Below are positions 4,772 through 40,856 of a stretch of DNA of 64,000 nucleotides, in pieces. Position numbers and translations under genes: made by a program. Origin of the DNA: Bacteroidales bacterium (lineage in GTDB: Bacteria > Bacteroidota > Bacteroidia > Bacteroidales > P3); contig JAISTG010000076.1 in the NCBI GenBank assembly GCA_031272705.1, forward strand, positions 19,204-83,203, read 5' to 3'. The notes below the pieces were generated by a model. It ran no database searches. It had not been told where the DNA came from and was given only the letters and a program-made list of their open reading frames with translations. The stretch's first letter is position 1. Every line of letters starts with the position of its first letter.

Positions 4772-4937
4772 GTGTTTCTGAACCTTTATCTCGGCGTAGC
4801 CAAATCAAATTACAGCGTGCTAGAATTTGATTATAGATTTCTGTAATTTGATTCCAGCGTTCTATAATTTGATTCTAATTTTCTATAATCAAATTCTAAA
4901 AAATTAGAATCAAATAAGAGAAATCCGTAATCAACTT
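4772..4937. repeat. 21-bp-phased AAT-CAA-ATT module array, locus A (7 modules)
   Basis: 9-mer cores start at 4803(+), 4824(-), 4845(-), 4866(-), 4887(+), 4908(+, AATCAAATA) and 4929(+, AATCAACTT), exactly 21 bp apart. The left flank GTTTCTGAACCTTTATCTCGGCGTAGCCAAATC matches the left end of locus D. Confidence 0.9.
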
Positions 4938-5036
4938 TTGGTTTTTCAAAGTGAAGAAAAAGCAAATTATTTCTTACTTTTGATATTCTGTAAATTTATT
5001 TTTTTGTATTTATTTTGTCATTTCAAAAAAATGTTG

Positions 5037-5044
5037 TAATTTTG
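5037..5044 (+). promoter_or_regulatory. -7 promoter box TAatTTTG
   Basis: Upstream of the rpsO ATG at 5111. Confidence 0.45.
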
Positions 5045-5110
5045 CACGCTCAAAAAAACAGACTTTAAGCGAATTTAATAGTAATAATATAAAAATAAAA
5101 CAAGTAAAAT

Positions 5111-5380
5111 ATGTATTTAACGGCTGAAAAGAAACAGGAAATCTTTAAGCAATTTGGCGGAAACGCTGCCAACACAGGTTCAACGGAAGGTCAAATAGCA
5201 TTATTCACGTTTAGAATAAAACATTTGACTGAACACGTAATTAGAAGTAAAAAAGATAAATCCACACAACGTGCTTTGGTACGTCTGGTTGGCAAGAGAC
5301 GCCGCCTTTTAGACTACTTAAAAGACAGGGATATTGTGAAATACCGTGAGTTAATCAAAGAGTTAGGTATCAGAAAATAA
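5111..5380 (+). CDS. rpsO: 30S ribosomal protein S15
   Basis: 89 aa, MYLTAEKKQEIFKQFGG...TGSTEGQIALFT...RRLLDYLK. Shows the conserved rpsO-pnp arrangement. Confidence 0.95.
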   Translation: MYLTAEKKQEIFKQFGGNAANTGSTEGQIALFTFRIKHLTEHVIRSKKDKSTQRALVRLVGKRRRLLDYLKDRDIVKYRELIKELGIRK

Positions 5381-5441
5381 TCTGGCGGCTTTGAGATTGA
5401 TTCTTAACATTGTAATTAAAAAGAAAAGATAGATTAAAATG

Positions 5442-5478
5442 AAAGGTAATTAGCTTCTAATTGCCTTTTCGTATTTTG
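5442..5478 (+). terminator. rpsO terminator/attenuator hairpin
   Basis: 12-bp stem AAAGGTAATTAG / CTAATTGCCTTT (one G-U pair) with a 3-nt loop, followed by TCGTATTTT. Located between rpsO and pnp. Confidence 0.5.
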
Positions 5479-5561
5479 GTAAGGAGCTACTGAAAGAATA
5501 AAAAAAGAGTAATTGCCGGGCAAGCTCCGCTCGGAAGAGGTAAATTAACATAAGAAGCAAA

Positions 5562-7805
5562 ATGTTAGGAACAAAGAAAGTCTTCACACTGGCAGACGGA
5601 AGACAGATAGAAATTGAAACCGGTAAGCTTGCCAAGCAAGCCGATGGTTCTGCCGTAGTTAGAATGGGCGATACAATGATTCTCGCCGCTGTTTGTGCAA
5701 AAAAAGAAGCAGGAGAGAACGTTGATTTTATGCCATTAAGCGTTGATTATCAAGAAAAGTATGCTGCAACCGGTCGTTTTCCGGGAGGATTCTTCAAACG
5801 TGAAGCAAGACCTTCGGAATATGAGATTTTGATTGCACGTCTGGTAGATAGGGCATTGCGTCCGTTGTTTCCTGATAATTATCACGCAGAAGTACAGGTG
5901 CAAATTACTTTAATATCGGGCGATCCGAACACTCCACCTGACGCATTGGCGGCATTGGCGGCAGCATCGGCTATAGCAGTATCCGATATTCCTTTTAACG
6001 GACCTGTAAGTGAGTGTCGCGTAGCGTATCTTGACGGAGAATTTAAGATAAATCCGTCTTTGGAAGAGATGGAACGTGCTGAACTTGATCTCATTGTAGC
6101 AGCCACCAAAGACAATATAATGATGGTGGAAGGTGAAATGAAGGAAGTAAGTGAGGAATTGATGTTAGAAGCGTTGCGTCAGGCACATAATAACATCAAG
6201 TTGCATTGTCAGGCTATTGATGAACTGATGTATGAGGTTGGAAAACAGGTAAAAAGAGAATATTGCCACGAAACAAACGATGAAGAGTTGCGATTGAAAC
6301 TCCATGATGCCGTTTATCAGCAATGTTATGACCTTGCACATAAGGGAATCAAAAATAAAAGTGAAAGAACAGAAGGTTTTGATGCCATAAAACAAGCCTT
6401 TGTTGAAACTCTTACACCTGAGGAAGTAGAGGAAAAGCAGTTTATGATTGACAGATACTTCCATGACGTAGAGAAAGAGGCTATGCGTGATATGGTTTTG
6501 AACGAAAGAACAAGACTTGACGGCAGAAAATTAGACGAAATCCGTCCTATCTGGACAGAAATTGACTATTTGCCATCTGCTCACGGCTCTGCAATCTTCA
6601 CAAGAGGGGAAACACAATCATTAACCACTTGTACGCTTGGAACAAAACTTGATGAACAGATAATAGACGGAGCAATGATAGAAGGTAAAAATCACTTTTT
6701 ACTGCACTATAATTTTCCGGGATTTTCCACAGGTGAAGTAAAACCAAACAGAGGTACTTCAAGGCGTGAAATAGGACATGGTAATCTTGCAATGAGAGCC
6801 TTAAAAAGTGTTATTCCTCCGCAGGAAGAATGTCCTTATACCATTAGAATAGTATCCGATATTCTTGAATCAAACGGCTCTTCCTCAATGGCAACTGTTT
6901 GTGCCGGCTGTCTGGCTTTGATGGATGCAGGTGTTAAAATTCGCAAACCTGTTTCCGGAATTGCTATGGGACTGATTGCAAAGGATGGAAAGTGGGCAGT
7001 ATTGTCCGATATTCTTGGAGATGAGGACCATTTGGGTGATATGGACTTTAAGGTTACAGGCACTCGTGATGGCATAACTGCTTGTCAAATGGATATAAAA
7101 TGTGATGGCTTGTCTTATGAAATACTTGCAAAAGCACTTGCGCAAGCAAAAGAAGGCAGACTGTTTATTTTGAATAAGATAACCGATACAATTCCTGAAC
7201 CGCGAGAAGACTACAAGCCTCACGTGCCAAGAGTTGTTCAAATGCAGATACCAAAGGATATGATTGGTGCAGTGATTGGACCTCAGGGAAAAATAATTCA
7301 AGAAATTCAAAAGGATACTAATACCGTTATTGTTATTGAAGACAAGGAAGAATACGGCACTGTTGATATTTCATCTGTAAATAAAGAAGGTATTGAAGCG
7401 GCTGTTGCACGTATCAAAGCGATAATTACCGTTCCTGTTGTAGGTGAAATATATCACGGAAAGGTTAAAAACTTGCAGTCTTTTGGAGCATTCATTGAGT
7501 TTTTGCCCGGTAAGGACGGAATGATTCACGTTTCTGACTTGCGTTGGGAAAAAGTTAAGAAGATTGAAGACGTAATTAAAATTGGTGAAGAGGTAGATGC
7601 AAAACTTATTGATATAGATAAGAAGACAGGAAAATACAAATTGTCTGTCAAATTGCTGTTGCCTAAACCCGAAGGATATGTTGAGCCGGAACCAAAGCCT
7701 AAAAGCGAGAACAAAAGACGCACAAAGCCGTCTCGCAAACGTAAAGAAAAATCGCCAAGTAAGGACAGAGGTAACGGAGACCGCAGTAACAATGCGGACA
7801 TATAA
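5562..7805 (+). CDS. pnp: polyribonucleotide nucleotidyltransferase (PNPase)
   Basis: 747 aa with two RNase PH-like halves, KH ([15 protein letters not shown]) and S1 ([20 protein letters not shown]) domains. Carries a Lys/Arg/Pro-rich C-terminal tail. Confidence 0.95.
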
Positions 7806-7839
7806 AGAAACAATAATAAATTTTTTGTGTTTATGATTG

Positions 7840-7870
7840 GGCTTACTCTTTTGGGAGTGAGCCTTTTTTA
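7840..7870 (+). terminator. rho-independent terminator after pnp
   Basis: GGCTTACTC / GAGTGAGCC stem with loop TTTTGG, followed by TTTTTT. Confidence 0.7.
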
Positions 7871-7874
7871 TTTT

Positions 7875-7959
7875 AAAACGGATTGGAGCAAAACCAAATC
7901 GTATTGGGATGAATCGGAAGGGAGAATAAAAATTCGCAAAAAGGATTGTAATTAAAAAA
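7875..7959 (+). repeat. ~86-bp dispersed repeat, copy 2 (partner at 2348-2433)
   Basis: Near-identical to copy 1. Here it is intergenic, immediately after the pnp terminator. Confidence 0.9.
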
Positions 7960-7966
7960 TTTTTTT

Positions 7967-7974
7967 TACCTTTG
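7967..7974 (+). promoter_or_regulatory. -7 promoter box TAccTTTG (second copy of TACCTTTGCAGCCGA)
   Basis: Same 15-mer as at 2464-2478. The next convincing ORF starts 515 nt downstream (8489), implying a long structured leader. Confidence 0.45.
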
Positions 7975-8043
7975 CAGCCGAATTTAATATGAAAAATTGT
8001 TCATGGAATCATATTTTTTAATTAGTTTGTTGAATTTAAACGG

Positions 8044-8100
8044 AGGCGTAGTTACCAAACAAATCGTGATTATTTAATATATGCTACGCCGAAGTTTTTT
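8044..8100 (+). repeat. hairpin element a (GAGGCGTAGTTACC...ATGCTACGCCGAAGTTTTT)
   Basis: GGCGTAG (8045-8051) pairs with CTACGCC (8084-8090). The termini are shared with element b, and the GCTACGCCGAAG...GTTCCGAA end resembles the locus D end. Confidence 0.8.
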
Positions 8101-8158
8101 TGTGTTCCGAATTTCTTTTTACACTTTAAAATTTTGTTTTTTAATGTTCATATGACCA

Positions 8159-8225
8159 GAGGCGTAGTTACCCAAAAGATTATTTATCATTTTGGTTTCT
8201 TGAGGTATGCTACGCCGAAGTTTTT
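8159..8225 (+). repeat. hairpin element b (GAGGCGTAGTTACC...ATGCTACGCCGAAGTTTTT)
   Basis: GGCGTAG (8161-8167) pairs with CTACGCC (8210-8216). An inner CCAAAA/TTTTGG stem is also present. Confidence 0.8.
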
Positions 8226-8229
8226 GAAA

Positions 8230-8433
8230 GGACAGCCAACGAATGGTTTAGGACAACCAACGGATGGTTTAGGACAGCCAACGGATGGTTTAGGACAGCC
8301 AACGAATGGTTTAGGACAACCAACGGATGGTTTAGGACAGCCAACGAATGGTTTAGGACAGCCAACGAATGGTTTAGGACAGCCAACGGATGGTTTAGGA
8401 CAGCCAACGAATGGTTTAGGACAGCCAACGAAT
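8230..8433. repeat. 21-bp tandem repeat GGACAGCCAACGAATGGTTTA, 9 full units plus 15 bp
   Basis: Units start at 8230+21n. Only two positions vary: G/A at unit position 6 and A/G at position 13. Open in three frames, which is a repeat artefact. Confidence 0.95.
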
Positions 8434-8488
8434 AATTGTATATCATTATTAATTAATAAAGTATTAACCATAAAAAATTTATATCAAT

Positions 8489-9163
8489 ATGCCAAATAAC
8501 GCAGATTACATCCCAAAGGGAAACGAAGAATTTAGAACGTGGTCGGCAAATTTCACGGAGAAAGTAAGCACCGTGTTTTATATGACGTTCGATATTCCCG
8601 TGGCAAAGAAAAACGAACTCGTAACGGCTCAATTAGACTACGAGCAAAAACAAGCCCTCATTGACGCGGGCGACAACAAAAGCCAAAATATCCACATTCG
8701 CAACGTGGCAAGGGACGTGTTGAAAGCACTTATACGAGAAATCACACAGCAGTACATTCGCCACAATCCCGATGTGAATGTAGGGCAGTTGAATATGCTC
8801 GGTTTGCAGGCGTACGACACCGAACGGACACCGATACACGTGCCTATGATTTCGCCGTATGTCCATGTGGAAGTGGGTACAAACTTCTGGCATTATGTTT
8901 TCTGGGGACAGGAAATAACAGGGCAAAAGGTCAAAGGCGGGTTGCCCGAAGGAGCAACAGGGGTACAAATCTGGTGTAAAATGAGCGAAACTCAGCCAAC
9001 GTACGAAGAAATGGAATTTGCGGGGAATTTCACCAAATCTCCGCACGTCTTTACGTACTCTTCCACAGACCGTAAAAAGACCGTCTGGTATGCCATCCGT
9101 TATTACAATGCCAAAGGCGAGGTAGGACCATGGTCAATAATGATTCCGGCGATAATCAATTAG
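8489..9163 (+). CDS. hypothetical protein (possible Ig/FN3-like C-terminal half)
   Basis: 224-aa ORF with non-repetitive, protein-like composition. The C-terminal WYAIRYYNAKGEVGPWS motif resembles FN3-type strands. No family recognised. Confidence 0.55.
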   Translation: MPNNADYIPKGNEEFRTWSANFTEKVSTVFYMTFDIPVAKKNELVTAQLDYEQKQALIDAGDNKSQNIHIRNVARDVLKALIREITQQYIRHNPDVNVGQLNMLGLQAYDTERTPIHVPMISPYVHVEVGTNFWHYVFWGQEITGQKVKGGLPEGATGVQIWCKMSETQPTYEEMEFAGNFTKSPHVFTYSSTDRKKTVWYAIRYYNAKGEVGPWSIMIPAIIN

Positions 9164-9301
9164 TCGCCGATTGTCATAAACAAAATATCATTCATTTACC
9201 ATTAGTGAATGATTAAACTTTTTCATAATTTTTTAGGGAGGTGTGATTCCTCATTTGAGAGGGAATACCCTCTTTTTTTTGTCCCGTATCAAAAAATTCC
9301 G

Positions 9302-9309
9302 TACCTTTG
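9302..9309 (+). promoter_or_regulatory. -7 promoter box TAccTTTG
   Basis: Lies 32 nt upstream of the ATG at 9341 and inside the ORF-track N-terminal extension, which argues for the shorter start. Confidence 0.5.
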
Positions 9310-9340
9310 CCCTCTCAAAAACATCAAACAAAATCTTATT

Positions 9341-10330
9341 ATGGACTTAACAAATAAACGGATATTACTTTTTGCACCCGCATTCTTCAATTACGAAAAA
9401 CGGATAGTCAATCGGTTATTGGAAATGGGTGCCACGGTAGATTTTTATGACGAACGCCCGAGCAATAACCTCTTCGTTAAAGCGGCGATACGCTATTTCC
9501 CTTTGCTTGTGCGTCCCCTCGTAGCGAAGTACTATCGCAACATAGCCGCAGAAGTCGGCGGCAGAACGTATAACTATATCCTTATAATAAATATGGAAAC
9601 CATGAGAAAAATTATCACCCGCCGTCTGCGGAGAGGTTTCCCCGAGGCAGAAATGATACTCGTTCTTTGGGATCCGTTGTACTACAAGCCCCGCGCAAAG
9701 CAAGTCCTGAAAAGGTTTGACCGTGTATTCTCCTTCGATGAGGGCGACTGCCGACAAAATAGGCATATACGGTTTCTGCCCGATTTCTACCTTGAAGAGT
9801 ATGCCAACGCCGCCCGCGTGAAGGAATATAAATACGATGTCGGTTTTGTCGGCACGGCACATACCGACCGCTACCGAACATTAAGAAAAATAAAGAAGGT
9901 TTTGGAGAAGGACAATATGAAACTCTGTGTGAAACTTTATTTTTATTCGGTGTTTAATTATTATCTCTGTAGGCTCTTTCATTGGGATTTTGTGGGTGCC
10001 AAGCGAAAGGATTTTGTCTTTTCGCCGATGACGGCAGCCGAAATTGCAGACATTTACGGCAGCAGCAGAATAGTTATAGACATTGAGTCTCCACACCAGC
10101 AAGGCATCACAATGCGTACCATTGAAATTTTGGCGGCAAGGCGAAAAATGATAACAACCAATGCCAACGTCCGTAATTATGACTTCTATAACGAAAATAA
10201 TATCCTCATCATCAGTAAGGAAAACCCCATTATTCCGTCCGCTTTCCTTACTTCTCCCTACGAGGAGTTAAGCGAAGAAATATATGAGAAATACTCTCTA
10301 AATTCTTGGTTAAAGCAGATTTTGATGTAA
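9341..10330 (+). CDS. putative polysaccharide-biosynthesis protein (glycosyltransferase-like), family uncertain
   Basis: ORF 9209..10330 trimmed to MDLTNKRILLFAPAFFNYEKRIV. The N-terminal Rossmann-like beta-alpha start and the DVGFVGTAHTDRY segment resemble LPS/capsule cluster proteins. Assignment is from memory only. Confidence 0.35.
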   Translation: MDLTNKRILLFAPAFFNYEKRIVNRLLEMGATVDFYDERPSNNLFVKAAIRYFPLLVRPLVAKYYRNIAAEVGGRTYNYILIINMETMRKIITRRLRRGFPEAEMILVLWDPLYYKPRAKQVLKRFDRVFSFDEGDCRQNRHIRFLPDFYLEEYANAARVKEYKYDVGFVGTAHTDRYRTLRKIKKVLEKDNMKLCVKLYFYSVFNYYLCRLFHWDFVGAKRKDFVFSPMTAAEIADIYGSSRIVIDIESPHQQGITMRTIEILAARRKMITTNANVRNYDFYNENNILIISKENPIIPSAFLTSPYEELSEEIYEKYSLNSWLKQILM

Positions 10331-10381
10331 GGAGCGTACCCTTCGGAGGGGTACAACTGTGTTTATTAAGATTTTTTTTTA

Positions 10382-10389
10382 TATCTTTG
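10382..10389 (+). promoter_or_regulatory. -7 promoter box TAtcTTTG
   Basis: Lies 38 nt upstream of the pheT ATG. Confidence 0.5.
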
Positions 10390-10426
10390 CAACCTCTTAA
10401 TTTCATAAAATAGAATACCGAAAAAT

Positions 10427-12916: not shown

Positions 12917-12919
12917 ATT

Positions 12920-14394: not shown

Positions 14395-14426
14395 GCATAT
14401 CAACACATTACAGCAGATAAAAACCT

Positions 14427-15431: not shown

Positions 15432-15443
15432 TGTTCCAATGCA

Positions 15444-15890
15444 ATGATTAGAACGAACAAAATCCTTTTTCATATAATTAACTATTTGAAATACAGATAT
15501 AAAGCCAAGAATGAATTTTCTATTCATTCTCCTTATATGTTTGAAACCTATCTTCAATGTATCAAGGGACGGAAAGATGATGATATAATCAGGGAACTGT
15601 CCAAACGAAATCAAGTTATAGAATTCTATAATCAAATTCCAGCAAACTGTAATCAAATTCTAGCGAACTGTAATCAAATTACAGAATTCTGTAATCAAGT
15701 TTCAGCAAACCATAATCAAATTACAGTAATTTATTACTTGAAAGGAATTTATCAAAACAAAAAAACACTGCAACAATGGGAAGAATTGCGGCAGCGAAAT
15801 AATGTATCACTTGATATAAATCTTTACTCTATGGGCTTGATTGTATGCAGAAAAGGTTTAAAACGTCAATCCTATATTCTAAAACGCTAA
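15444..15890 (+). pseudogene. probable remnant of a class I SAM-dependent methyltransferase; core replaced in frame by repeat array B
   Basis: The N-terminus (YLKYRYKAKNEFSIHSPYMFETYL) and C-terminus (VSLDINLYSMGLIVCRKGLKRQSYILKR) resemble the ends of ~220-aa Bacteroidota methyltransferases. No GxGxG SAM-binding core is present. The middle 42 codons are six 21-bp modules. Confidence 0.45.
15606..15734 (+). repeat. 21-bp-phased AAT-CAA-ATT module array, locus B (6 modules, all same orientation)
   Basis: Cores at 15609 (AATCAAGTT), 15630, 15651, 15672, 15693 (AATCAAGTT) and 15714. Translates in frame as heptads NQVIEFY NQIPANC NQILANC NQITEFC NQVSANH NQITVIY. Confidence 0.9.
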
Positions 15891-15891
15891 C

Positions 15892-16467: not shown

Positions 16468-16470
16468 TTT

Positions 16471-17832: not shown

Positions 17833-17852
17833 CTTTTCTTAAATATGTTATG

Positions 17853-20090: not shown

Positions 20091-20196
20091 GTGTTTCTGA
20101 AATCAAATTACAGCGTGCTATAATCAAATTACAGAATTTTATAATCAAATTACAGCGTGCTGTAATTTGATTATAAAATTCTGTAATTTGATTTCA
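20091..20196. repeat. 21-bp-phased AAT-CAA-ATT module array, locus C (5 modules; 72-bp near-perfect palindrome)
   Basis: Cores at 20101(+), 20122(+), 20143(+), 20164(-) and 20185(-). 20122-20155 is the exact reverse complement of 20160-20193, with a 4-nt centre CGTG. Confidence 0.95.
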
Positions 20197-24941: not shown

Positions 24942-25117
24942 CGTTTCCGGAACCTTTATTTTGGCGTAGCCAAATCTAATTACGATTCTCCATAATCAAA
25001 TAATATTTCTCTAAAATCAAGTTTCATTCATCTATAATCAAATAATAGACAAATATAATCTAATTATAGAACAATAGAATTAGATTTGGCTACGTCGAGT
25101 TAAAAGTTCGGAAAAGT
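24942..25117. mobile_element. MITE-like element: locus D array (6 modules) bounded by ~38-bp imperfect terminal inverted repeats
   Basis: The left end CGTTTCCGGAACCTTTATTTTGGCGTAGCCAAATCTAATT matches the reverse complement of the right end CTTTTCCGAACTTTTAACTCGACGTAGCCAAATCTAATT. Cores at 24973+21n (n=0-5), variants AATCTAATT/AATCAAATA/AATCAAGTT. No coding capacity. Confidence 0.7.
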
Positions 25118-27899: not shown

Positions 27900-27919
27900 T
27901 TACTTTATATTATTATTGA

Positions 27920-29068: not shown

Positions 29069-29069
29069 T

Positions 29070-30872: not shown

Positions 30873-30897
30873 AATACAATATGATTTTATCAGGCGG

Positions 30898-30905
30898 CAA
30901 AGATA
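30898..30905 (-). promoter_or_regulatory. -7 promoter box TAtcTTTG
   Basis: Lies 26 nt upstream of the ATG at 30872. Confidence 0.55.
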
Positions 30906-30953
30906 CAACTTTTTTTTGAAACAAAAACAAACTGATACTTAATACCATATTAC

Positions 30954-31052
30954 CGTAATTTGATTATAGAAAATTAGAATCAAATTACAGCGTGCTAGAA
31001 TCAAATTATAGAACGCCGGAATTTGATTTCAGGAATACAGAATCAAGTTTCA
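30954..31052. repeat. 21-bp-phased AAT-CAA-ATT module array, locus E (5 modules)
   Basis: Cores at 30957(-), 30978(+), 30999(+), 31020(-) and 31041(+, AATCAAGTT). Confidence 0.9.
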
Positions 31053-31146
31053 GAAAATCATAATAGCATTTTACCTGCTTGAATACAAAAAAAGAGGACT
31101 TGCAAATTTGCAAATCCTCTTACATATGAATGGTTTAGAGTATTAT

Positions 31147-33864: not shown

Positions 33865-33918
33865 CTTAGTATATATTAAATATTGAAATAACGTAATAAT
33901 TTTGCTCAAAAGAGCGTG

Positions 33919-33926
33919 CAAAAATA
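33919..33926 (-). promoter_or_regulatory. -7 promoter box TAttTTTG
   Basis: Lies 55 nt upstream of the ppdK ATG at 33864 and inside the hydrophobic ORF-track extension. Confidence 0.45.
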
Positions 33927-34158
33927 CGAAAAAAAAACATAATACAATCCAAAAAAAAGCAAATAATTTTTCCAACTAATCTCTCTGACTTGTCAAGGCT
34001 TATCAAACAACCATAAATTACCCATCCGCCAAACTTTTTCGGAGCTAAGGAAAAACTACGGCGGGATTACGGAAAAGTTTGAGAGACCTCCCTATCTTGC
34101 GGATAAACCAAAAAAATTACGAAAAAGAAATAAAATTAACAATTATTAAAATTTATAT

Positions 34159-34166
34159 TATCTTTG
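34159..34166 (+). promoter_or_regulatory. -7 promoter box TAtcTTTG
   Basis: Lies 29 nt upstream of the ATG at 34195. Confidence 0.55.
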
Positions 34167-34194
34167 CAGCCGTAAATTTTTAATAAAAAAGTAT

Positions 34195-35304
34195 ATGTAT
34201 TGGTTTTTTGTACTTTTGTTATCATTCTGTATTGTTATTCTGCTTATGCCTACGTTTATAAAGCAAATGGAGAAGCATAGAATTTTAGACGCAGCGGGCG
34301 GACGCAAAATCCACAGCGGATATACTGCACATATGGGAGGCGTTGTGATTTTTATTGGATTTTTGTGTGGTTTCTGTTTCTCTCTAACAGGCATACGAGA
34401 AGAGATTAGTCCGTTATATATTGTCTCTCTGCTCGTACTTTTAGGGTTTGTTATGGTTATCGGAATAAACGATGATATGAATTCTCTTTCGCCTGTGCGT
34501 AAATTGATCTTTGAAATAGTTGTTTCGTTATGCCTTTGTGCCTTGGGAATAAGACTGAAAAGTTTTGGAGGTTTCCTTGGCATTCATACATTACCCGTAT
34601 GGATAAGTTATGGTTTAACAACATTTTTCTTTATCGTTGTAAGCAATGCATATAATCTCATAGATGGAATAGACGGACAGGCGGCATTGCAGGCATTAGC
34701 GGCACTTGGCGGTATTGCTTTTTTTCTCTGGCAGTTTATACCCGTTGAAATGCGTATAGTGGAAGGCTTGAACAATCCTATGTTATGGCTAATGCTTATT
34801 GCTTCTGCGATGGGAGGAATTGTTGGATTTCTGCTTTATAACTGGCAAAAGGCAAGAATTTTTATGGGAGATACGGGAAGCATATTCATAGGTTTTATTA
34901 TAGGAATGGCAATTATCGTTTGTATGAATCTAAATGTAGAAGGGGATGCACAAGTATGGAATTACAAAATTCAAAGTAATCTTGGAGTAATACTGTGTGC
35001 TTTTTTCCTGCCGTTAGCCGACACTTTGAGAGTATTTATACTAAGAGTCCGTAAGGGGAAATCACCTCTTTATCCCGATAAAACTCATATACATCATTTG
35101 CTGTTAAGAATAAATGGTTTTTCTCATGCGAAATGTGCTTTAACTCTCTTTTTTCTACAGGTAGGAATAATGCTTGTGATGTTTTTTCTTTCTCTTTTCT
35201 TTAACGATAACATCTTTGCAATCATTATTTTCTTTGCATGGGTGCTTTATGTTGCCTTTGTACAGATTATTGCCAGAATAAAATTAAAACATATCACCAA
35301 ATAA
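34195..35304 (+). CDS. glycosyltransferase family 4 (MraY/WecA-like undecaprenyl-phosphate sugar-1-phosphate transferase)
   Basis: 369 aa and polytopic. NAYNLIDGIDGQA and FMGDTGS motifs present. Confidence 0.8.
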   Translation: MYWFFVLLLSFCIVILLMPTFIKQMEKHRILDAAGGRKIHSGYTAHMGGVVIFIGFLCGFCFSLTGIREEISPLYIVSLLVLLGFVMVIGINDDMNSLSPVRKLIFEIVVSLCLCALGIRLKSFGGFLGIHTLPVWISYGLTTFFFIVVSNAYNLIDGIDGQAALQALAALGGIAFFLWQFIPVEMRIVEGLNNPMLWLMLIASAMGGIVGFLLYNWQKARIFMGDTGSIFIGFIIGMAIIVCMNLNVEGDAQVWNYKIQSNLGVILCAFFLPLADTLRVFILRVRKGKSPLYPDKTHIHHLLLRINGFSHAKCALTLFFLQVGIMLVMFFLSLFFNDNIFAIIIFFAWVLYVAFVQIIARIKLKHITK

Positions 35305-35314
35305 ATATACACAT

Positions 35315-35986
35315 ATGACTGAACAGGAATATATTATAAGATTTGAAAATGCTACTCTTGCAAATGAAAACTTTACTCTCAAGGATATAAATCTCCAAAT
35401 CAGAAAAGGAGAATTTACATATCTGATTGGTAAAACAGGAACGGGCAAAAGTACTTTGTTAAGAGCCATTTATGCCGATATTCCCTTACAGGAGGGTGCT
35501 GCGGAGGTCTGTGGTTACAACATAACCAAAATCAAAAAACGCAATATAGCAATGTTGCGGCGTCATTTGGGCATTGTGTTTCAGGACTTCCAGTTATTGC
35601 AGGACAGGAGCGTATTTGACAACATTGCTTTTGTGCTTCGGGCTACGGGTTGGAAGAATAAACAGGCTATAAATGAGAGAGTAATGCGTGTTTTGGAAGA
35701 AGTAGGACTGGCAGATAAAGTTTCCACGAAGATATTTAAGTTAAGCGAGGGAGAGCGTCAGCGTATCGGAATAGCAAGAGCATTAGCCAATGAACCTGAA
35801 CTAATTATAGCCGATGAGCCAACGGGCAATCTTGACCCCATAACAAGCGAACAGATTATCCGATTGCTGATGGACATTTGCGAAAAGAAGGAAACAACCA
35901 TTCTTATCGCCACTCACGACTACGTTATGATAGATAAATATCGCGCCCGCATAATTGCAATAGAGGACGGCAAGGTTGTAGGATAA
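35315..35986 (+). CDS. ftsE: cell division ATP-binding protein FtsE-like ABC ATPase
   Basis: Walker A GKTGTGKST, signature LSEGERQR, Walker B LIIADEPTGNLD. The 223-aa length is typical of FtsE. Confidence 0.75.
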   Translation: MTEQEYIIRFENATLANENFTLKDINLQIRKGEFTYLIGKTGTGKSTLLRAIYADIPLQEGAAEVCGYNITKIKKRNIAMLRRHLGIVFQDFQLLQDRSVFDNIAFVLRATGWKNKQAINERVMRVLEEVGLADKVSTKIFKLSEGERQRIGIARALANEPELIIADEPTGNLDPITSEQIIRLLMDICEKKETTILIATHDYVMIDKYRARIIAIEDGKVVG

Positions 35987-36007
35987 GAAAACATCATTTG
36001 ATTTTCA

Positions 36008-36148
36008 GGCGATTAGATTTCACCAAACTGAAATCAAATTACAGAATTCTAGAATCAAATTCTAGCGTTCTATAATTTGATTCTAGCACGCCGTAATTTG
36101 ATTCTAATTTTCTATAATCAAATTCTAATAATTTAGAGTCAAGTTTCC
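36008..36148. repeat. 21-bp-phased AAT-CAA-ATT module array, locus F (7 modules)
   Basis: Cores at 36011 (GATTAGATT, -), 36032(+), 36053(+), 36074(-), 36095(-), 36116(+) and 36137 (AGTCAAGTT). Confidence 0.9.
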
Positions 36149-36196
36149 GTAATCAGTTGTCAAATCAGACACCTTTTAATTCCAATTCCGCACCGA

Positions 36197-37606
36197 TTAA
36201 AAGCGAAAATAGATGAACGGATTAAAATCCGAAGCAATTATATGTGAGGTACTTATCACAAAAAGCAAAATAAAACACACGAAAAGTATGATATGTTGCC
36301 ACGTTTTATAATTCTCTCTGCAGAAAAAGAAATTTTGTATTTTTTGACCAAAGTTCCAGTATGGTAAAATGCTGAAAATAACCGCCGGAATTAACATCGG
36401 GAAAAATATGGGTTTGATTAGAGTTTCGGTATTTTGGGAAAAATCAAATAGATGCAGGAAATAGGTTGTTAATTGCCCAATGTCCTCTATTACAAAGATT
36501 AACCAGCCAAACATAACTATGATAAACGTAATTAAAATGGATATTGGTCGCCATAATCTGTTCAATAATTTCAACAGAAAGACCCTGTCAAGTATCAAAA
36601 ACAAACCGTGAAATGCTCCCCAAAAGATAAAATTCCACGCAGCCCCGTGCCATAAGCCCGAAAGCAAAAAACATAAACCCAGATTGAAATAGAGACGGTG
36701 TTTTGTTTTAACCCGATTTCCTCCAAGTGGGATGTACAGATAGTCTTTAATGAAAGACGAAAGCGAAATGTGCCATCGTTTCCAGAAGTCTGTGATTGAG
36801 GTTGATATATACGGATTTTTGAAGTTTTCAGGGTAGTGAAAGCCCATCATTTGCCCAAGTCCGATAGCCATATCGCTGTAACCGCTGAAATCAAAGTAGA
36901 TTTGGAAGGTGTAGGCTATCATTCCCATCCACGCAGACGCAGCATTGAGAGTTTGAAAGTCGGCTTCAAAGACCAAATTTGCCTCTTGAGCCATTGCATT
37001 TGCGATAAGAACTTTTTTAGCCAAGCCTATAGAAAATTTATAAAAGCCAATGAGTTTGTTATCAAAGGAATCGTTACGCTCAATCAGTTCATCGGCAATC
37101 GTTCCAAAGCGAACAATCGGTCCGGCTATCATTTGGGGAAACGCAATTATGTAAATAACATAGTCGGACAAACGTTTGAGTCGCTGATGTGTGCCTCGCC
37201 AAACGTCAATCGTATATGTAATGCTCTGAAAAACAAAGAATGAAATACCTATTGGCAGGGCTATCCGCATAATTTTTGGCATTGTGCCGCCGAAAAGGTG
37301 CATCAAACTGTCGGTTGTATCTATGAAAAAGTTAAAATACTTAAATACAAAAAGCAAACCAAGATTCAAAATTACGGAACAAATCATCAATGTCTTACTT
37401 TTTCTTTTGTCCATTTCGGCAACAAGATAGAAATTGACAATAGTTGTTGCTATAAGCACAAAAATAAATCTTGGTGCTCCCCAAGCATAAAATATCAGAC
37501 TGAATGCTAATAATACGTAATTCCTTGCTTTCTTTGGCATAAGCGAATAGGTCAAAAGAAAGACCGGAAGGAAAAAAAGAACGAATAAACTGCTGCTAAA
37601 TACCAT
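36197..37606 (-). CDS. MBOAT family O-acyltransferase (AlgI/DltB-like)
   Basis: 469 aa and polytopic. Conserved FWRRWH-type motif (DFWKRWHISLSSF) and the LSGLWHGA histidine. Confidence 0.85.
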   Translation of the reverse strand: MVFSSSLFVLFFLPVFLLTYSLMPKKARNYVLLAFSLIFYAWGAPRFIFVLIATTIVNFYLVAEMDKRKSKTLMICSVILNLGLLFVFKYFNFFIDTTDSLMHLFGGTMPKIMRIALPIGISFFVFQSITYTIDVWRGTHQRLKRLSDYVIYIIAFPQMIAGPIVRFGTIADELIERNDSFDNKLIGFYKFSIGLAKKVLIANAMAQEANLVFEADFQTLNAASAWMGMIAYTFQIYFDFSGYSDMAIGLGQMMGFHYPENFKNPYISTSITDFWKRWHISLSSFIKDYLYIPLGGNRVKTKHRLYFNLGLCFLLSGLWHGAAWNFIFWGAFHGLFLILDRVFLLKLLNRLWRPISILITFIIVMFGWLIFVIEDIGQLTTYFLHLFDFSQNTETLIKPIFFPMLIPAVIFSILPYWNFGQKIQNFFFCRENYKTWQHIILFVCFILLFVISTSHIIASDFNPFIYFRF

Positions 37607-38792
37607 TTGTTATTTGTTTTGAATGTTTTGAGGGATTGTTTTCGCCGAAGAAATGTTTGTTTAAGTCCTCTATGATACCATATCCATTATTCATATAATC
37701 ACCTCCGAGATACCGAAGATTACAATCACTTGCCATAACGATAATTAAGTCGGCTGATTTCAATTCATCAAATCGGCTAACGCTGTCTATGCTCAACGGC
37801 ATATTGTATCGTCGAAGCGAGTCGGTATAATTGATTTCGTGATAGTAGTACCAATACTCCCCTTCTTTGAAAAGAGTATTTGAAATGTCGTGAAAAATTT
37901 GCCAATAGTAAGAATCGCTGACCACAATCGTTTTAAGACGGTGATAATTGCTGTCTATAATCATTTCATATTCGGGATAAGCCAAAGGAGTATTGGTTTT
38001 CATACGCCGGATTAAGTTAAGAGTGTTTTCGCAGTCCAAATCATTACCTTCAGCCTTGTCTTTGGGATTAAGAGATGTAATTTTGAATGAATTATTGCAG
38101 TATGTGCCTGCGGTAAAATACTTAATCAACGAATCAATTACAAACATCTGACTATACCTTGACCAATGTACGCCCGTCTTAGGAAAAAGCGGATAGGTCG
38201 CTGTGTCTTTCATAGCCACAAACCACGACAGTAAATCAATGTTTTCAACATTATAATGCTTACAAGCCTCAATATAGGTTGCGTGATTGGTGTGTGGCTG
38301 TTGCATTTTCAAGTATCGGTCGGGTATAAACTCAGGATAGAAACTTCCTTTGCCCGGTGCAAAGATTATAATCATTCTTTGACCTCGTTTTGCCAGCGTA
38401 TCCTGTAACCTTTTAATGACCTGTACTTTTCTATAAATGGAATCTTCGCCTAAATAATTGATTCCGTTTACCGCATCAATGTATCCCATGTGGTAAAGGA
38501 AGTTTTCTTTTCCCATAATCACGGTTTCATTTGGGCAAATGTTAAAACAGGAGTAATAAATCTGATTTCGCAGCCGTATGAAATCGTTATGAAATCCGCA
38601 ACTGTCGTTAAGATACTGTTGCATCTTTGACTGGTAATCGCCATTGAGCCAAGCACGTAAGGTTAATGAAGGTTTGTTTTGACTTGCTGCGGCATAACCG
38701 TTAAGTTCCTTCCCTGTGGAGAAAGGGAAAAGGGTTTGAACAAGCGACAAACTCAAAATCATTATAAGCAATATGTATAAGATACGTTTCAT
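37596..38792 (-). CDS. AlgJ/AlgX-like (DHHW/SGNH-type) O-acetylation accessory protein
   Basis: 398 aa with an N-terminal anchor. KTGVHWS resembles the (D/G)xHW motif. Overlaps the MBOAT start by 11 nt, the usual MBOAT partner arrangement. Confidence 0.5.
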   Translation of the reverse strand: MKRILYILLIMILSLSLVQTLFPFSTGKELNGYAAASQNKPSLTLRAWLNGDYQSKMQQYLNDSCGFHNDFIRLRNQIYYSCFNICPNETVIMGKENFLYHMGYIDAVNGINYLGEDSIYRKVQVIKRLQDTLAKRGQRMIIIFAPGKGSFYPEFIPDRYLKMQQPHTNHATYIEACKHYNVENIDLLSWFVAMKDTATYPLFPKTGVHWSRYSQMFVIDSLIKYFTAGTYCNNSFKITSLNPKDKAEGNDLDCENTLNLIRRMKTNTPLAYPEYEMIIDSNYHRLKTIVVSDSYYWQIFHDISNTLFKEGEYWYYYHEINYTDSLRRYNMPLSIDSVSRFDELKSADLIIVMASDCNLRYLGGDYMNNGYGIIEDLNKHFFGENNPSKHSKQITNGI

Positions 38793-38824
38793 TTTTGCTT
38801 CTGTTTCAGGTAAATTTTGGTTTG

Positions 38825-38832
38825 CAAAGATA
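38825..38832 (-). promoter_or_regulatory. -7 promoter box TAtcTTTG of the O-acyltransferase operon
   Basis: Lies 33 nt upstream of the ATG at 38792. The palindrome array begins about 25 bp further upstream. Confidence 0.55.
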
Positions 38833-38854
38833 TAAAATTTCCTTTTATTGCATT

Positions 38855-39175
38855 GAAAGCCCGTTTTAATTTCACGAAACCTAGGTTCTAAAAAAATGAA
38901 ACCTAGGTTTCGTGAAATTGAAACCTAGGTTCTAAAAAAATGAAACCTAGGTTTCGTGAAATTGAAACCTAGGTTCTAAAAAATTAAAACCTAGGTTTCG
39001 TGAAATTGAAACCTAGGTTCTAAAAAAATGAAACCTAGGTTTCGTGAAATTGAAACCTAGGTTCTAAAAAAATGAAACCTAGGTTTCGTGAAATTAAAAC
39101 CTAGGTTCTAAAAAAATGAAACCTAGGTTTCGTGAAATTAAAACCTAGGTTTCACAACTCACGAAACGGGCTTTC
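38855..39175. repeat. array of 13 AACCTAGGTT palindromes at exact 22-bp phasing (44-bp alternating unit), flanked by a 12-bp inverted repeat
   Basis: AACCTAGGTT starts at 38878+22n for n=0-12. Units alternate GAAACCTAGGTTCTAAAAAAAT and GAAACCTAGGTTTCGTGAAATT. The flanks GAAAGCCCGTTT (38855-38866) and AAACGGGCTTTC (39164-39175) are reverse complements. Confidence 0.95.
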
Positions 39176-39203
39176 GTCAAAATGAAACGCCGTTCCATAA
39201 CAA

Positions 39204-39234
39204 CAAAAAAAACGACGAACAAAACTGTTCGCCG
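39204..39234 (-). terminator. rho-independent terminator after rocD
   Basis: Minus-strand RNA reads CGGCGAAC-AGUUUU-GUUCGUCG followed by a U run, 30 nt past the rocD stop. Confidence 0.7.
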
Positions 39235-39264
39235 AAAATACAATTTATTATGCTTAGTAAAAGA

Positions 39265-40485
39265 TTATTCAAAAGAAAGGATAGCCGATTTGATTATTTC
39301 TATCGCTTCACGCAACTCGGCTTCGGTAATCACCAACGGAGGAGCAAACCGAATGATATGCTTGTGTGTAGGTTTGGCAAGCAAACCCATATCACGCATT
39401 TTCAGGCAAACGTCCCACGCTTCCTTGCCATTGCGAGGACGAATCACCACTGCATTCAACAGCCCCTTGCCTCTAACAAGTTCAATCATATCACTGTTAA
39501 TTTTAGATATTTCTTCACGGAAAATGTTGCCAAGATACGCTGCCTTTTCTGCCAACTTCTCTTCCTTTACAACTTCCAAAGCAGCAATTGCAACCTTTCC
39601 TGCAAGGCAGAAACCGCCAAAAGTAGAGCCATGTTCGCCCGGTCCTATAGTTAGCATCACCTCATCGTCAGCCAGAACCGCCGAAACAGGAATCACACCG
39701 CCCGAAAGAGCCTTGCCAAGTATAAGAATATCAGGACGAACGCCTTCATGGTCGCACGCAAGCAGTTTTCCGGTACGAGCAATGCCCGTCTGAACTTCGT
39801 CAGCAATGAAAAGAACATTATGTTTCTTGCAAATGTCATAGCATTTCTTCAAATAACCTTCGTCAGGTACGAAAACACCAGCCTCTCCCTGTATAGGCTC
39901 AAGCAGAAACGCCGCAACCTTATCGCCACACTTTGTAAGAACATCTTCCAACGCTTTACTGTCATTGTAAGGTATGCGAACAAAACCCGGAGTGAAAGGA
40001 CCATACTCACCATAACTCTCAGGGTCATTACTCATTGAAACGATTGAAATAGTACGTCCGTGAAAGTTTCCGTCACAACAAACTATTATCGCTTCATTTT
40101 CCGCAATACCTTTTACTCTATAGCCCCAACGACGAGCCAGTTTCAACGCTGTTTCATCTGCTTCCGCACCTGTGTTCATCGGCAATACCTTATCGTATCC
40201 AAAATATTCTGTTACATATTTTTCATAAGGTCCAAGAGTGTCGTTATAAAATGCTCTTGAAGTAAGAGTTAGAGTTTGTGCCTGTTCGCAAAGAGCCTCT
40301 ACGATTTTCGGATGGCAATGCCCTTGATTTACCGCTGAATATGCGGAAAGGAAATCAAAATAACGTTTCCCTTCTACGTCCCAAACATAAGCCCCTTTCC
40401 CTTTTGATAAAACTACCGGCAAAGGATGGTAATTGTGAGCCCCATAATGATGCTCCATTTCCATTAACTGTTCTGATTTTGTCAT
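39265..40485 (-). CDS. rocD: ornithine aminotransferase (ornithine--oxo-acid transaminase)
   Basis: ORF trimmed to [59 protein letters not shown] and the PLP lysine context (ILGKALSGG). Confidence 0.9.
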
Positions 40486-40518
40486 ATTTAGATATATTTT
40501 TATTTTAATTTGAGGTTG

Positions 40519-40526
40519 CAAAGATA
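40519..40526 (-). promoter_or_regulatory. -7 promoter box TAtcTTTG
   Basis: Lies 34 nt upstream of the rocD ATG at 40485. Confidence 0.55.
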
Positions 40527-40643
40527 GCATAAATTTTTCAATTATACGCAAACTAACAAAAATATTGGCAAGACTGACGTCTCATCAATCCGTACAACAG
40601 ATTAGTTTTCTTATATTTGCATAATAAAGAAACCAAATAATAT

Positions 40644-40715
40644 ATGAATATATCGGGTTTGGAAGTGCATAAAGATAGTATATTGTGTATGCTTTACGAT
40701 GGAAAAACCATTTGA
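40644..40715 (+). pseudogene. possible 23-codon stub of an IS110-family transposase
   Basis: MNISGLEVHKDSILCMLYDGKTI-stop resembles the M..(I/V)G(I/L)DVHK(D/K)S(I/F)..C N-termini of IS110-family DEDD transposases. A TAtaTTTG box at 40612-40619 precedes it and repeat array G follows directly. Confidence 0.3.
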
Positions 40716-40735
40716 AAACCGTACTTTAATTTTTT

Positions 40736-40856
40736 TAAGTCTTGATTTCCGTTTCCTATAATCAATTTACAGCACGCTAGAATCAAATTACAGAAGTTTA
40801 TAATCAAATTCTAGCGTTCTATAATTTGATTATAGATTTTTAGAATCAAGTTTCAG
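40736..40856. repeat. 21-bp-phased AAT-CAA-ATT module array, locus G (6 modules)
   Basis: Cores at 40739 (GTCTTGATT, -), 40760 (AATCAATTT), 40781(+), 40802(+), 40823(-) and 40844 (AATCAAGTT). Confidence 0.9.

What the first reader, a model, noticed from the sequence alone, without database searches (positions are those of the whole stretch)
4772..40856. Dispersed family of arrays built from strictly 21-bp-phased AAT-CAA-ATT modules: 7 loci, 42 modules in 36 kb
Seven loci carry 5-7 modules each. Their 9-mer cores start at A 4803+21n (n=0-6), B 15609+21n (0-5), C 20101+21n (0-4), D 24973+21n (0-5), E 30957+21n (0-4), F 36011+21n (0-6) and G 40739+21n (0-5). I found no phase slip within any locus. 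Twenty-six cores are exact AATCAAATT/AATTTGATT and 16 differ by 1-2 nt. Each module reads as a 15-bp quasi-palindrome T-R-K-AAT-CAA-ATT-M-Y-A plus a 6-bp linker drawn from a small set (GCGTGC, GCGTTC, GAATTC, GATTTC, ATTTTC). The asymmetric CAA centre gives each module an orientation. Orientations are mixed within loci (A is + - - - + + +; C is + + + - -), yet the phase is kept. Loci B, D, E, F and G share an AATCAAGTTTC(A/C) module. The arrays lie between divergent, convergent and tandem genes, roughly every 4.5-6 kb from 15.6 to 40.8 kb. None is present in the 42.5-56 kb RNAP/ribosomal block. A 21-bp period is two helical turns, so all sites would face one side of the helix. That fits an array for a dimeric DNA-binding or nucleoid-organising protein, or a REP/BIME-like mosaic element. 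I do not recognise this as a described repeat family.
Basis: seen in the sequence. Interest (0 to 1): 0.8.

Follow-up and report, generated by a model that had tools for sequence, protein, structure and literature searches.

The report
Dispersed 21-bp palindromic repeat arrays
This chromosome segment of an uncultured Bacteroidales bacterium is peppered with copies of a short repeat built from strictly 21-bp modules. It most likely belongs to an undescribed family of REP/MITE-like "selfish" intergenic repeats, a known kind of element and not a new regulatory system.

Summary
Seven arrays of 5-7 modules keep an exact 21-bp register. The core AATCAAATT occurs 29 times in the window against 3.8 expected, and 26 of those are in the arrays.

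The arrays are paralogous copies, not independently evolved sites. Their 6-nt linkers recur between loci (25 identical pairs against 0.3 expected), and exact multi-module blocks of 30-35 nt are shared.

Six arrays lie between housekeeping operons in any gene arrangement. Array B lies in frame inside a conserved small gene, which carries exactly 63 extra bp (3 modules) compared with three orthologs.

Two other short-read contigs of the same organism end inside arrays. The same module arrays occur in at least 7 other Bacteroidota genomes. A fairly close relative lacks them but has its own 21-22-bp palindrome arrays with different cores.

The best reading is a REP/BIME- or BrickBuilt-like non-autonomous repeat family that grows by whole units and is spread by copying. 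The mobilising enzyme was not found: the window has no transposase or RAYT, the modules have no GTAG tag, and no target-site duplications were seen. A host DNA-binding-array function is not excluded. I found no description of the family in the literature I could search.

The parts
4780..4940 (.). Array A: a 22-nt cap (GAACCTTTATCTCGGCGTAGCC, 4780-4801) followed by 7 modules, orientation +---+++. It lies in the 1.1-kb divergent gap upstream of pnp.
   Evidence: folds as two hairpins, z -6.1
15606..15725 (+). Array B: 6 modules, all in + orientation, translated in frame as the heptads NQVIEFY NQIPANC NQILANC NQITEFC NQVSANH NQITVI.
15444..15890 (+). Conserved small gene of unknown function (148 aa) that hosts array B, between rlmN and lptC. 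Orthologs are 121-122 aa (a third is called at 96 aa) and lack 63 bp (3 modules).
   Evidence: Flank substitutions are mostly at third codon positions; synonymous changes outnumber non-synonymous against L233 and L236. No Pfam or NCBIfam family.
20098..20196 (.). Array C: 5 modules, +++--, between the divergent coaX and iorA genes. It is a near-perfect foldback with 35-nt arms that are 100% complementary, centred on a linker.
   Evidence: z -10.3
24944..25115 (.). Array D: 6 more degenerate modules, +++++-, bracketed by inverted caps (GGCGTAGCCAAATC at 24963 and its complement at 25083-25096). The 70-nt inverted arms make it MITE-like. It lies between the S8 peptidase gene and ompA (tandem genes).
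   Evidence: RNA z -7.4
30954..31052 (.). Array E: 5 modules, -++-+, between the PPDK terminator (31092-31121) and the next gene's start.
36008..36148 (.). Array F: 7 modules, -++--++, between the convergent ABC ATPase and MBOAT genes. It shares an exact 35-nt block with A and a 30-nt block with G.
   Evidence: Logan contig L101 ends inside it
40736..40855 (.). Array G: 6 modules, -+++-+, 20 bp downstream of the hydF stop codon and upstream of an aminotransferase gene. It folds as one whole-element hairpin.
   Evidence: z -9.2; Logan contig L102 ends inside it
57138..57325 (.). Possible degenerate eighth locus: two + modules and two - modules flanking an unrelated hairpin repeat (CCTGCGGGGAAAC...GTTTTCCCCGCAGG).
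   Evidence: profile scan and sequence; weak

Best explanation
The arrays are copies of a non-autonomous, REP/BIME-like (or BrickBuilt/MITE-like) repeat family of Bacteroidota.

The building block is a fixed 21-bp unit: a 9-bp core (AAT-CAA-ATT) plus a 12-bp spacer that has its own weaker dyad (..AG-nnnn-CT..). An array is therefore a lattice of dyad axes about 10.5 bp apart.

Shown here:
- The copies are paralogous (shared linkers and blocks).
- They change by whole 21-bp units.
- They occupy non-essential DNA at operon borders, and once a tolerant stretch of coding sequence.
- They are abundant in this lineage, absent from a relative, and present in several other Bacteroidota.

Inferred:
- Arrays grow by slippage or unequal exchange of 21- or 42-bp units.
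- Modules flip by foldback or inversion between neighbouring palindromic modules. Because every module and every spacer has a fixed length, this automatically keeps the phase.
- New loci arise by copying, carried out by a sequence-specific enzyme that recognises the core as a hairpin or duplex. The most plausible candidate is a single-copy RAYT-type HUH transposase encoded elsewhere in the genome. Arrays are then kept similar to each other by gene conversion.

The 21-bp phase is thus a consequence of how the element is built and need not serve a function. Any host role (terminator or insulator hairpins, protein docking) would be secondary.
For: - Core enrichment and strict phase.
- Linkers shared between loci: 25 identical pairs against 0.3 expected. 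Exact shared blocks of 35 nt (A/F), 32 nt (E/F, reverse complement), 31 nt (A/E, reverse complement) and 30 nt (F/G).
- A cap shared by A-left, D-left and D-right in inverted orientation.
- Long foldbacks, z from -3 to -10 against shuffles; in C a 35-nt perfect inverted duplication that includes the linkers.
- Arrays occur in divergent, tandem and convergent gaps between housekeeping genes. They are absent from the rpoBC/ribosomal block.
- Array B adds exactly 3 units in frame to a gene under purifying selection.
- Two independent short-read contigs of the same organism stop inside arrays F and G.
- The same modules in mixed orientations occur in at least 7 other species-level Bacteroidota genomes and about 27 metagenome contigs, again between housekeeping genes.
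- A relative with 66-75% aa identity in syntenic genes has none in 20 kb.
- Precedent: Bacteroidetes have their own RAYT subclass (2.6), whose REPs are 'atypical', lack GTAG and fold weakly (PMC6006769). A Bacteroidales RAYT gene carries a perfectly phased in-frame tandem REP array.
Against: - No transposase, RAYT or integrase is present in the 64-kb window.
- None was found next to family arrays. A motif scan of 1.5 Mb of fetched loci gave only an unrelated RAYT with canonical GTAG REPs.
- The modules have no GTAG/CGTC tag. Their stems are short and AT-rich, and they match none of the listed subclass 2.6 REPs.
- No target-site duplication or clean filled-versus-empty site was found. The element ends are ragged, except at D.
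- The near-identical core in genomes from different habitats is unusual for REP or MITE families, which tend to be species-specific. It could instead reflect selection by a conserved host protein.
- Genome-wide copy number could not be measured.
Confidence: 0.55

Rival explanations
1. The arrays are docking sites for a conserved dimeric DNA-binding protein of the host, such as a nucleoid-associated or boundary protein. The protein binds the AAT-CAA-ATT dyads cooperatively on one face of the helix (the 21-bp period is two turns). In this reading the arrays mark operon borders and are kept by selection, not by selfish copying.
For: - The core is far more conserved than the linkers (positions 4-12 at 76-97%).
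- The same core is found in several Bacteroidota genomes.
- Dyad axes fall every ~10.5 bp.
- Arrays occupy 6 of the window's 14 gaps of 100 bp or more.
- Other arrays in these genomes have the same 21-22-bp period but different palindromic cores, as would be expected for paralogous binding proteins.
Against: - Identical linkers and 30-35-nt blocks shared between loci show copying, not convergence.
- Arrays also lie between convergent genes and inside a coding sequence.
- Positions are not conserved in relatives.
- Orientation relative to flanking genes is inconsistent.
- No candidate protein is known.
- Exaptation of a selfish repeat would look the same, so the two readings are not exclusive.
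Confidence: 0.2
2. The arrays are MITEs left by an IS or transposon whose ends carry several subterminal transposase-binding sites (as in Tn7, Mu or Tn402). The modules would be those ~20-bp binding sites, and the arrays would be fused left and right ends after loss of the interior.
For: - D has 70-nt inverted arms with a distinct terminal cap.
- C (+++--) and D (+++++-) look like a left block facing a right block.
- A conserved composite architecture recurs in two different MAGs (L021/L038 and L067).
- The degenerate 57.1-kb locus has + + modules on the left and - - on the right of a foreign insert.
Against: - Orientation patterns such as +---+++, -++--++ and ++++++ do not fit two facing ends.
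- No target-site duplications were seen.
- No full-length element with these ends was seen in the 1.5 Mb examined.
- There are no hits in the plasmid or phage collections.
- The cap is found only in this genome.
Confidence: 0.12
3. The arrays act at the RNA level. Transcribed into UTRs, they would form long hairpins that terminate or insulate transcription, stabilise mRNA ends, or are processed into small RNAs.
For: - Predicted RNA folds are strong: -20 to -48 kcal/mol, z from -3.6 to -9.3.
- Several arrays lie just downstream of stop codons (F, G, D, E).
- BrickBuilt elements in P. gingivalis were reported to have promoter activity and long stem-loops (PMC4596501).
Against: - There is no Rfam match.
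- The PPDK gene keeps its own canonical terminator outside array E.
- Array B, all in one orientation, folds weakly.
- Arrays in divergent promoter gaps (A, C) and inside a coding sequence do not fit a terminator role.
- The fold follows automatically from repeated palindromes, so it is not independent evidence.
Confidence: 0.08

Closest known systems
REP / BIME / REPIN elements mobilised by RAYT (TnpA_REP) transposases (Proteobacteria; Bacteroidetes subclass 2.6, PMC6006769)
   Same: Both are short imperfect palindromes, highly repeated, and extragenic at operon borders. Both cluster in both orientations with linkers of fixed length, are often reiterated in tandem (PMC3733652), and form hairpin pairs. 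They are lineage-specific in abundance. REPs are occasionally inserted in frame in genes (PMC6006769; seen here in L240).
   Different: Here there is no GTAG/CGTC tag. The stems are much shorter and AT-rich. The register is a strict 21 bp, with a second dyad in the spacer. No RAYT was found nearby. The same core occurs in several genomes, whereas REPs usually differ between species.
BrickBuilt MITE/minisatellite of Porphyromonas gingivalis (PMC4596501)
   Same: Both occur in a Bacteroidales host and are dispersed and mostly intergenic, between housekeeping genes. Both are built from tandem ~21-23-nt units with dyad symmetry that fold into long stem-loops, and the unit number varies between copies.
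   Different: BrickBuilt units are 23 nt, all direct, and number up to 22.8 per element. They are enclosed by leader and tail segments of up to 285 and 318 nt with small TIRs. BrickBuilt is reported only in P. gingivalis. Here the units are 21 nt, in mixed orientation, 5-7 per locus, with no leader or tail apart from a 22-nt cap at A and D. The family is found in several genomes.
Rickettsia palindromic elements (RPE) (from my own knowledge: Ogata et al. 2000)
   Same: Both are selfish palindromic repeats that can sit in frame inside protein-coding genes without destroying them, as array B does.
   Different: RPEs are single ~100-150-bp elements, not arrays of 21-bp modules, and the host phylum is different.
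BOX elements of Streptococcus pneumoniae (from my own knowledge)
   Same: Both are modular intergenic repeats in which an internal module is reiterated a variable number of times.
   Different: BOX has three distinct module types (A, B, C) in a fixed order with a 45-bp boxB. It has no strict helical phase or mixed orientation.
Multi-site transposon ends (Tn7 TnsB sites, Mu L1-3/R1-3) (from my own knowledge)
   Same: Both are arrays of ~20-22-bp protein-binding repeats in direct and inverted orientation.
   Different: Those sites bracket a transposon that encodes its own transposase. Here no such gene is present, and the orientation patterns do not form two facing ends.

Membership tests
REP/BIME (RAYT-associated) | Short imperfect palindrome able to form a stem-loop | tested here: met
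   AAT/ATT arms pair in 33-40 of 42 modules and the outer T/A pair in 30 of 42. The stem is only 3-7 bp and AT-rich.
REP/BIME (RAYT-associated) | High copy number, dispersed, extragenic | tested here: met
   42 modules at 7 loci in 36 kb; 6 of 7 loci are intergenic. Whole-genome copy number is not testable with the data held.
REP/BIME (RAYT-associated) | Conserved 5' GTAG or CGTC tag at the foot of the hairpin | tested here: not met
   The modules have no such tag. GTAG occurs only in the cap at A and D. Subclass 2.6 REPs of Bacteroidetes also lack GTAG.
REP/BIME (RAYT-associated) | A cognate RAYT gene flanked by the same REPs (REPtron) | tested here: inconclusive
   None in the window. None among 1.5 Mb of loci except an unrelated one. 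Two Bacteroidales RAYTs that I fetched are not flanked by such arrays.
REP/BIME (RAYT-associated) | Clusters of REPs in alternating orientation separated by linkers of defined types | tested here: met
   Mixed orientations and recurrent linker types. Unlike BIMEs, the orientation does not alternate strictly.
MITE | Terminal inverted repeats | tested here: inconclusive
   Clear at D (70-nt arms with cap). C and G are whole-element foldbacks. A, B, E and F have no distinct termini.
MITE | Target-site duplication flanking the element | tested here: not met
   No direct duplication is seen next to D, or at other loci, on reading the flanks. No filled-versus-empty pair was available.
MITE | A parent IS with matching ends | tested here: inconclusive
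   None seen in the window or the loci. There are no plasmid or phage hits.
BrickBuilt (P. gingivalis) | Tandem direct 23-nt repeats without spacers | tested here: not met
   Units here are 21 nt and in mixed orientation. The definition is from PMC4596501.
BrickBuilt (P. gingivalis) | Leader and tail segments (up to ~300 nt) carrying small TIRs | tested here: not met
   The flanks do not align between loci, apart from the 22-nt cap of A and D.
CRISPR array | Repeats of 24-48 bp separated by unique spacers of similar size, with cas genes | tested here: not met
   The units are 15-bp modules with 6-bp recurrent linkers. No cas domains are found in the window.
Replication iterons / partition centromere | One or a few arrays per replicon, next to rep or par genes | tested here: not met
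   There are seven arrays in 36 kb, next to unrelated housekeeping genes.

The most novel reading that the evidence does not exclude
The AATCAAATT family may be only the most widespread member of a broader, undescribed class in Bacteroidales: intergenic arrays whose unit is always about two helical turns (21-22 bp, rarely 23) but whose palindromic core is interchangeable. Cores seen include GAAACCTAGGTTTC, AAGGACTAAGTCCTT, ATAATGCCATTAT, AAAAATCGGATTTTT, AGATGTACATCT, AATTCCATGGAAT and TGGTAGCTACCA. These arrays often abut one another, and P. gingivalis BrickBuilt would be one instance. A constant ruler with variable cores would point to a shared and still unknown machinery. That could be a diversified family of sequence-specific dimeric proteins or HUH enzymes that builds, spreads or uses such arrays, rather than many unrelated selfish repeats.
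Probability: 0.25. Interest if true: 0.75.

Novelty: new variant of a known kind. Interest (0 to 1): 0.5.

Why it matters
If the main reading holds, this adds a high-density REP-like repeat family (about one array per 5 kb here) to Bacteroidota, a phylum where such elements are barely described. The only described Bacteroidales example I found is BrickBuilt. The subclass 2.6 RAYTs have only "atypical" REPs that were listed by hand.

It has practical consequences. The arrays break short-read assemblies of MAGs, create spurious or altered ORFs, and can add heptad repeats to real proteins.

The fixed two-turn unit shared by arrays with unrelated cores gives a concrete handle for finding the protein that recognises them. 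That protein could be a domesticated transposase or a chromosome-organising factor. Either result would bear on the long-standing question of what REP-type repeats do for their hosts.

Tried and rejected
1. First genome-contig scan (two phased cores). The pattern was too permissive for 596 Gb. It still yielded 7 genuine genomes.
2. att-site or arm-site idea, because arrays lie about 50-60 bp from a tRNA-Ala gene in L161/L167/L178. Rejected: no integrase was seen, and it is one locus sampled three times.
3. Promoter-upstream element idea, from direct four-module arrays about 100-200 bp upstream of ORFs in L143/L162/L209. Rejected: these are duplicated polymorphic-toxin cassettes, and other loci show the opposite or a convergent arrangement.
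4. Sigma-70 promoter and terminator scan. There was no enrichment over shuffles. The modules read TAnTTTG or TAnnnTTTG, so on inspection they do not match the Bacteroidetes -7 motif TAnnTTTG (motif from my own knowledge).
5. Phage origin. The 'viral' IMG/VR contig L231 carries enolase and nrdDG, so it is chromosomal. There are no BLAST hits in the phage or plasmid collections.
6. Rfam. Only tRNAs were found.
7. RAYT hunt, by motif regex and by fetching two Bacteroidales RAYT loci. No link to these arrays was found.
8. My recollection that the gene hosting array B is a truncated methyltransferase. This was not supported: there are no Pfam or NCBIfam hits, and the orthologs are all about 120 aa.
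9. Orthologous-site comparison through HydF. Synteny is not conserved in the nearest relatives.
10. Target-site duplications. None were recognisable.

Full report
**1. The observation**

Tandem Repeats Finder reports a 21-bp (or 42-bp) period at each of the seven loci. The exact 9-mer AATCAAATT or its complement occurs 29 times in 64 kb against 3.8 expected from dinucleotide shuffles (largest shuffle 11). Of these, 26 lie in the arrays. The orientation strings are A +---+++, B ++++++, C +++--, D +++++-, E -++-+, F -++--++ and G -+++-+.

Some corrections are needed:
- Module G1 differs from the core by 3 nt.
- The 15-mer is a palindrome mainly in its AAT/ATT arms and the outer T/A pair.
- A weak eighth locus may exist at 57.14-57.33 kb.
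- Array B is not intergenic (section 3).

**2. Anatomy**

A unit is a 9-bp core plus a 12-bp spacer. The spacer has its own weaker dyad, mainly ..AG-nnnn-CT.. It forms 2.86 of 6 possible pairs against 1.73 +/- 0.18 for shuffled spacers. An array is therefore a lattice of dyad axes about 10.5 bp apart.

Because every module and spacer has a fixed length, mixed orientations give long foldbacks:
- C has 35-nt arms that are 100% complementary, linkers included.
- D has 70-nt arms.
- G has 35-nt arms.
- A and F each have 54-nt arms.

All arrays fold better than shuffles, both as DNA (z from -3.1 to -10.3) and as RNA (z from -3.6 to -9.3). This follows from the construction, so it is not independent evidence for a structural role.

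A 22-nt cap (GAACCTTTAT..GGCGTAGCC) precedes A and brackets D in inverted orientation. It is absent from all 240 fetched loci.

**3. The copies are paralogs that change by whole units**

Strand-canonical linkers recur between different loci: 25 identical between-locus pairs against 0.3 expected (largest null value 3). Exact blocks of 30-35 nt that span two modules and their linker are shared by A/F, F/G, E/F and A/E. Selection on a protein-binding core alone would not preserve the linkers, so this indicates copying.

Array B is the only array with an open reading frame. All the others have stop codons in all six frames. B lies inside a 148-aa ORF between rlmN and lptC. A homolog search found three relatives of 122, 121 and 96 aa. 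One of them sits in conserved synteny (lptC, two genes, coaX) in a Bacteroidales MAG.

The flanks align at 57-66% aa identity. Substitutions are concentrated at third codon positions, and synonymous codon changes outnumber non-synonymous ones against L233 and L236. So the gene is real and under purifying selection.

The window copy has exactly 63 extra bp, which is three units. The orthologous stretch in the relatives is also 63 bp. It reads as three degenerate heptads (FDVRELQ NEDLCPP NERATI) against six well-formed module heptads in the window. Either an old three-unit array was expanded and homogenised in this lineage, or a fresh array replaced that stretch. In both cases the change is by whole 21-bp units, and the sequence matches the other arrays of this genome.

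**4. Context**

The flanking genes are ordinary chromosomal genes: pnp, rlmN, lptC, coaX, iorA, ompA, an S8 peptidase, PPDK, an ABC ATPase, an MBOAT gene, an aminotransferase and hydF. Arrays lie in divergent (A, C), tandem (D, E, G) and convergent (F) gaps. This rules out a common promoter or operator role.

Coding density is 88.6%. Of the 14 gaps of 100 bp or more in the window, six hold a family array and one holds a different 22-bp palindrome array. The rpoBC/ribosomal block has none. The PPDK gene keeps its own terminator outside array E. No transposase, integrase or HUH protein is encoded in the window. Rfam finds only tRNAs.

**5. Distribution**

The source is an uncultured Bacteroidales MAG (117.6-kb contig). 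Its nearest HydF relative is only 76% identical. Two Logan short-read contigs of the same organism end inside arrays F and G, which is the usual signature of dispersed repeats.

A truncated scan of one genome per species found the same module (TAGAATCAAATTACA) at a 21-bp period, in mixed or direct orientation, in 7 other Bacteroidales/Bacteroidota MAGs. Where I checked, these arrays also lie between housekeeping genes. One set lies in duplicated polymorphic-toxin cassettes.

A relative with 66-75% aa identity in syntenic genes has no such array in 20 kb. The plasmid and phage collections gave no hit.

**6. Mechanism**

The evidence fits a non-autonomous REP/BIME- or MITE-like repeat family. 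It spreads by copying, grows by unit slippage or unequal exchange, and flips modules by foldback or inversion between palindromic neighbours. That process keeps the 21-bp phase automatically. These steps are inferred; copying and unit-wise change are shown.

The mobilising enzyme is unknown. The best candidate class is the RAYT/TnpA_REP family. Bacteroidetes have their own subclass (2.6), whose REPs lack GTAG, fold weakly and had to be found by hand (PMC6006769). None of those listed REPs matches our module. A motif scan of 1.5 Mb of loci found only an unrelated RAYT with canonical GTAG REPs. Two Bacteroidales RAYT loci that I fetched are not flanked by such arrays. One of them does contain a perfectly phased in-frame 27-bp tandem REP array, which is a precedent for array B.

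**7. Rivals**

A host DNA-binding array on one face of the helix remains possible. The conserved core and the two-turn period favour it. The shared linkers, the placement in convergent gaps and in a coding sequence, and the lack of positional conservation count against it. The other two rivals, a remnant of multi-site transposon ends and RNA-level hairpins, have less support (see the rival entries).

**8. Comparison with known elements and novelty**

The closest described element is BrickBuilt of P. gingivalis. It is also a dispersed intergenic element with a tandem-unit core that folds into long stem-loops. But it has direct 23-nt repeats and long leader and tail segments, neither of which is found here.

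REP/BIME elements are the closest functional analogue. However, the defining GTAG tag is not met, and the RAYT link is untested.

Full-text searches for the motif, for Bacteroidales REPs and for Bacteroidetes MITEs found no description of this family. I rate it a new variant of a known kind.

**9. A broader pattern**

In 360 kb of array-bearing Bacteroidales loci and their relatives, the other tandem repeats collapse to 38 distinct units. Thirteen have a period of 21 bp, eight of 22, one of 23 and five of 42 or 44. About ten are strongly dyadic with unrelated cores, and they often abut the family arrays. In 600 kb of control loci from mixed phyla there were no 22-bp arrays.

This sample is biased, because the loci were chosen for containing 21-bp arrays. 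I therefore give the idea of a class-wide two-turn ruler only as the most novel reading that the evidence does not exclude.

Noticed in passing
window 38876-39188: A second kind of phased palindrome array: a 44-bp unit (two 22-bp half-units), 6.3 copies, 97% identical, built on the perfect palindrome GAAACCTAGGTTTC. It lies in the gap between the AlgX-like gene and the aminotransferase gene and has stops in all frames.
   Followed up: partly
window 8229-8433: A 21-bp tandem repeat (AGGACAGCCAACGAATGGTTT, 9.8 copies, 94% matches) inside ORF 8134-8499. It probably codes for heptad repeats in a small protein and is unrelated to the AATCAAATT family.
   Followed up: no
window 57138-57325: Four degenerate family modules (+ + ... 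- -) flank an unrelated hairpin repeat (CCTGCGGGGAAAC / GTTTTCCCCGCAGG, ~22-bp period). It looks like one repeat nested in another.
   Followed up: partly
L240 6276-6405: A Lentimicrobium RAYT gene contains a 27-bp x 4.8 tandem array of REP palindromes (GGGCGAATTGCATTCGCCC) that is 100% identical between copies and in frame. It is a clear example of phased REPs inside a coding gene.
   Followed up: partly
L021 6076-6200, L038 7423-7550, L067 3002-3130: A conserved composite element found in two different MAGs: two direct modules followed by a hairpin made of variant modules (AACTCTTGATTCTA ... TAGAATCAAGAGTTA). It suggests a defined sub-element within the family.
   Followed up: no
L143 252 and 3736; L162 8880 and 12338; L209 3206 and 5190: Nearly identical four-module direct arrays precede successive polymorphic-toxin cassettes (Tox-MPTase2, RHS). 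The array was evidently duplicated together with each cassette.
   Followed up: partly
L161 9234, L167 5958, L178 3530: A family array lies about 50-60 bp from the 3' end of a tRNA-Ala(GGC) gene, next to a 22-bp AAGGACTAAGTCCTT array. It is the same site in three samples, with point differences but a constant unit number.
   Followed up: partly
L233 9679-9850 and 882-1027; L103 1689-1785: Relatives of the source organism lack AATCAAATT arrays but carry their own intergenic 21-22-bp arrays with other palindromic cores (AGATGTACATCT, TTCTTTCACGTCAAAGAA, AATTCCATGGAAT).
   Followed up: partly
L231 (IMGVR_UViG_3300033408_000043): A contig catalogued as viral carries enolase, nrdD/nrdG and an MFS transporter around the array. 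At least this part looks chromosomal.
   Followed up: partly
window 31092-31121: A canonical intrinsic terminator (13-bp stem plus a T run) lies just after the PPDK stop codon, separate from array E.
   Followed up: no
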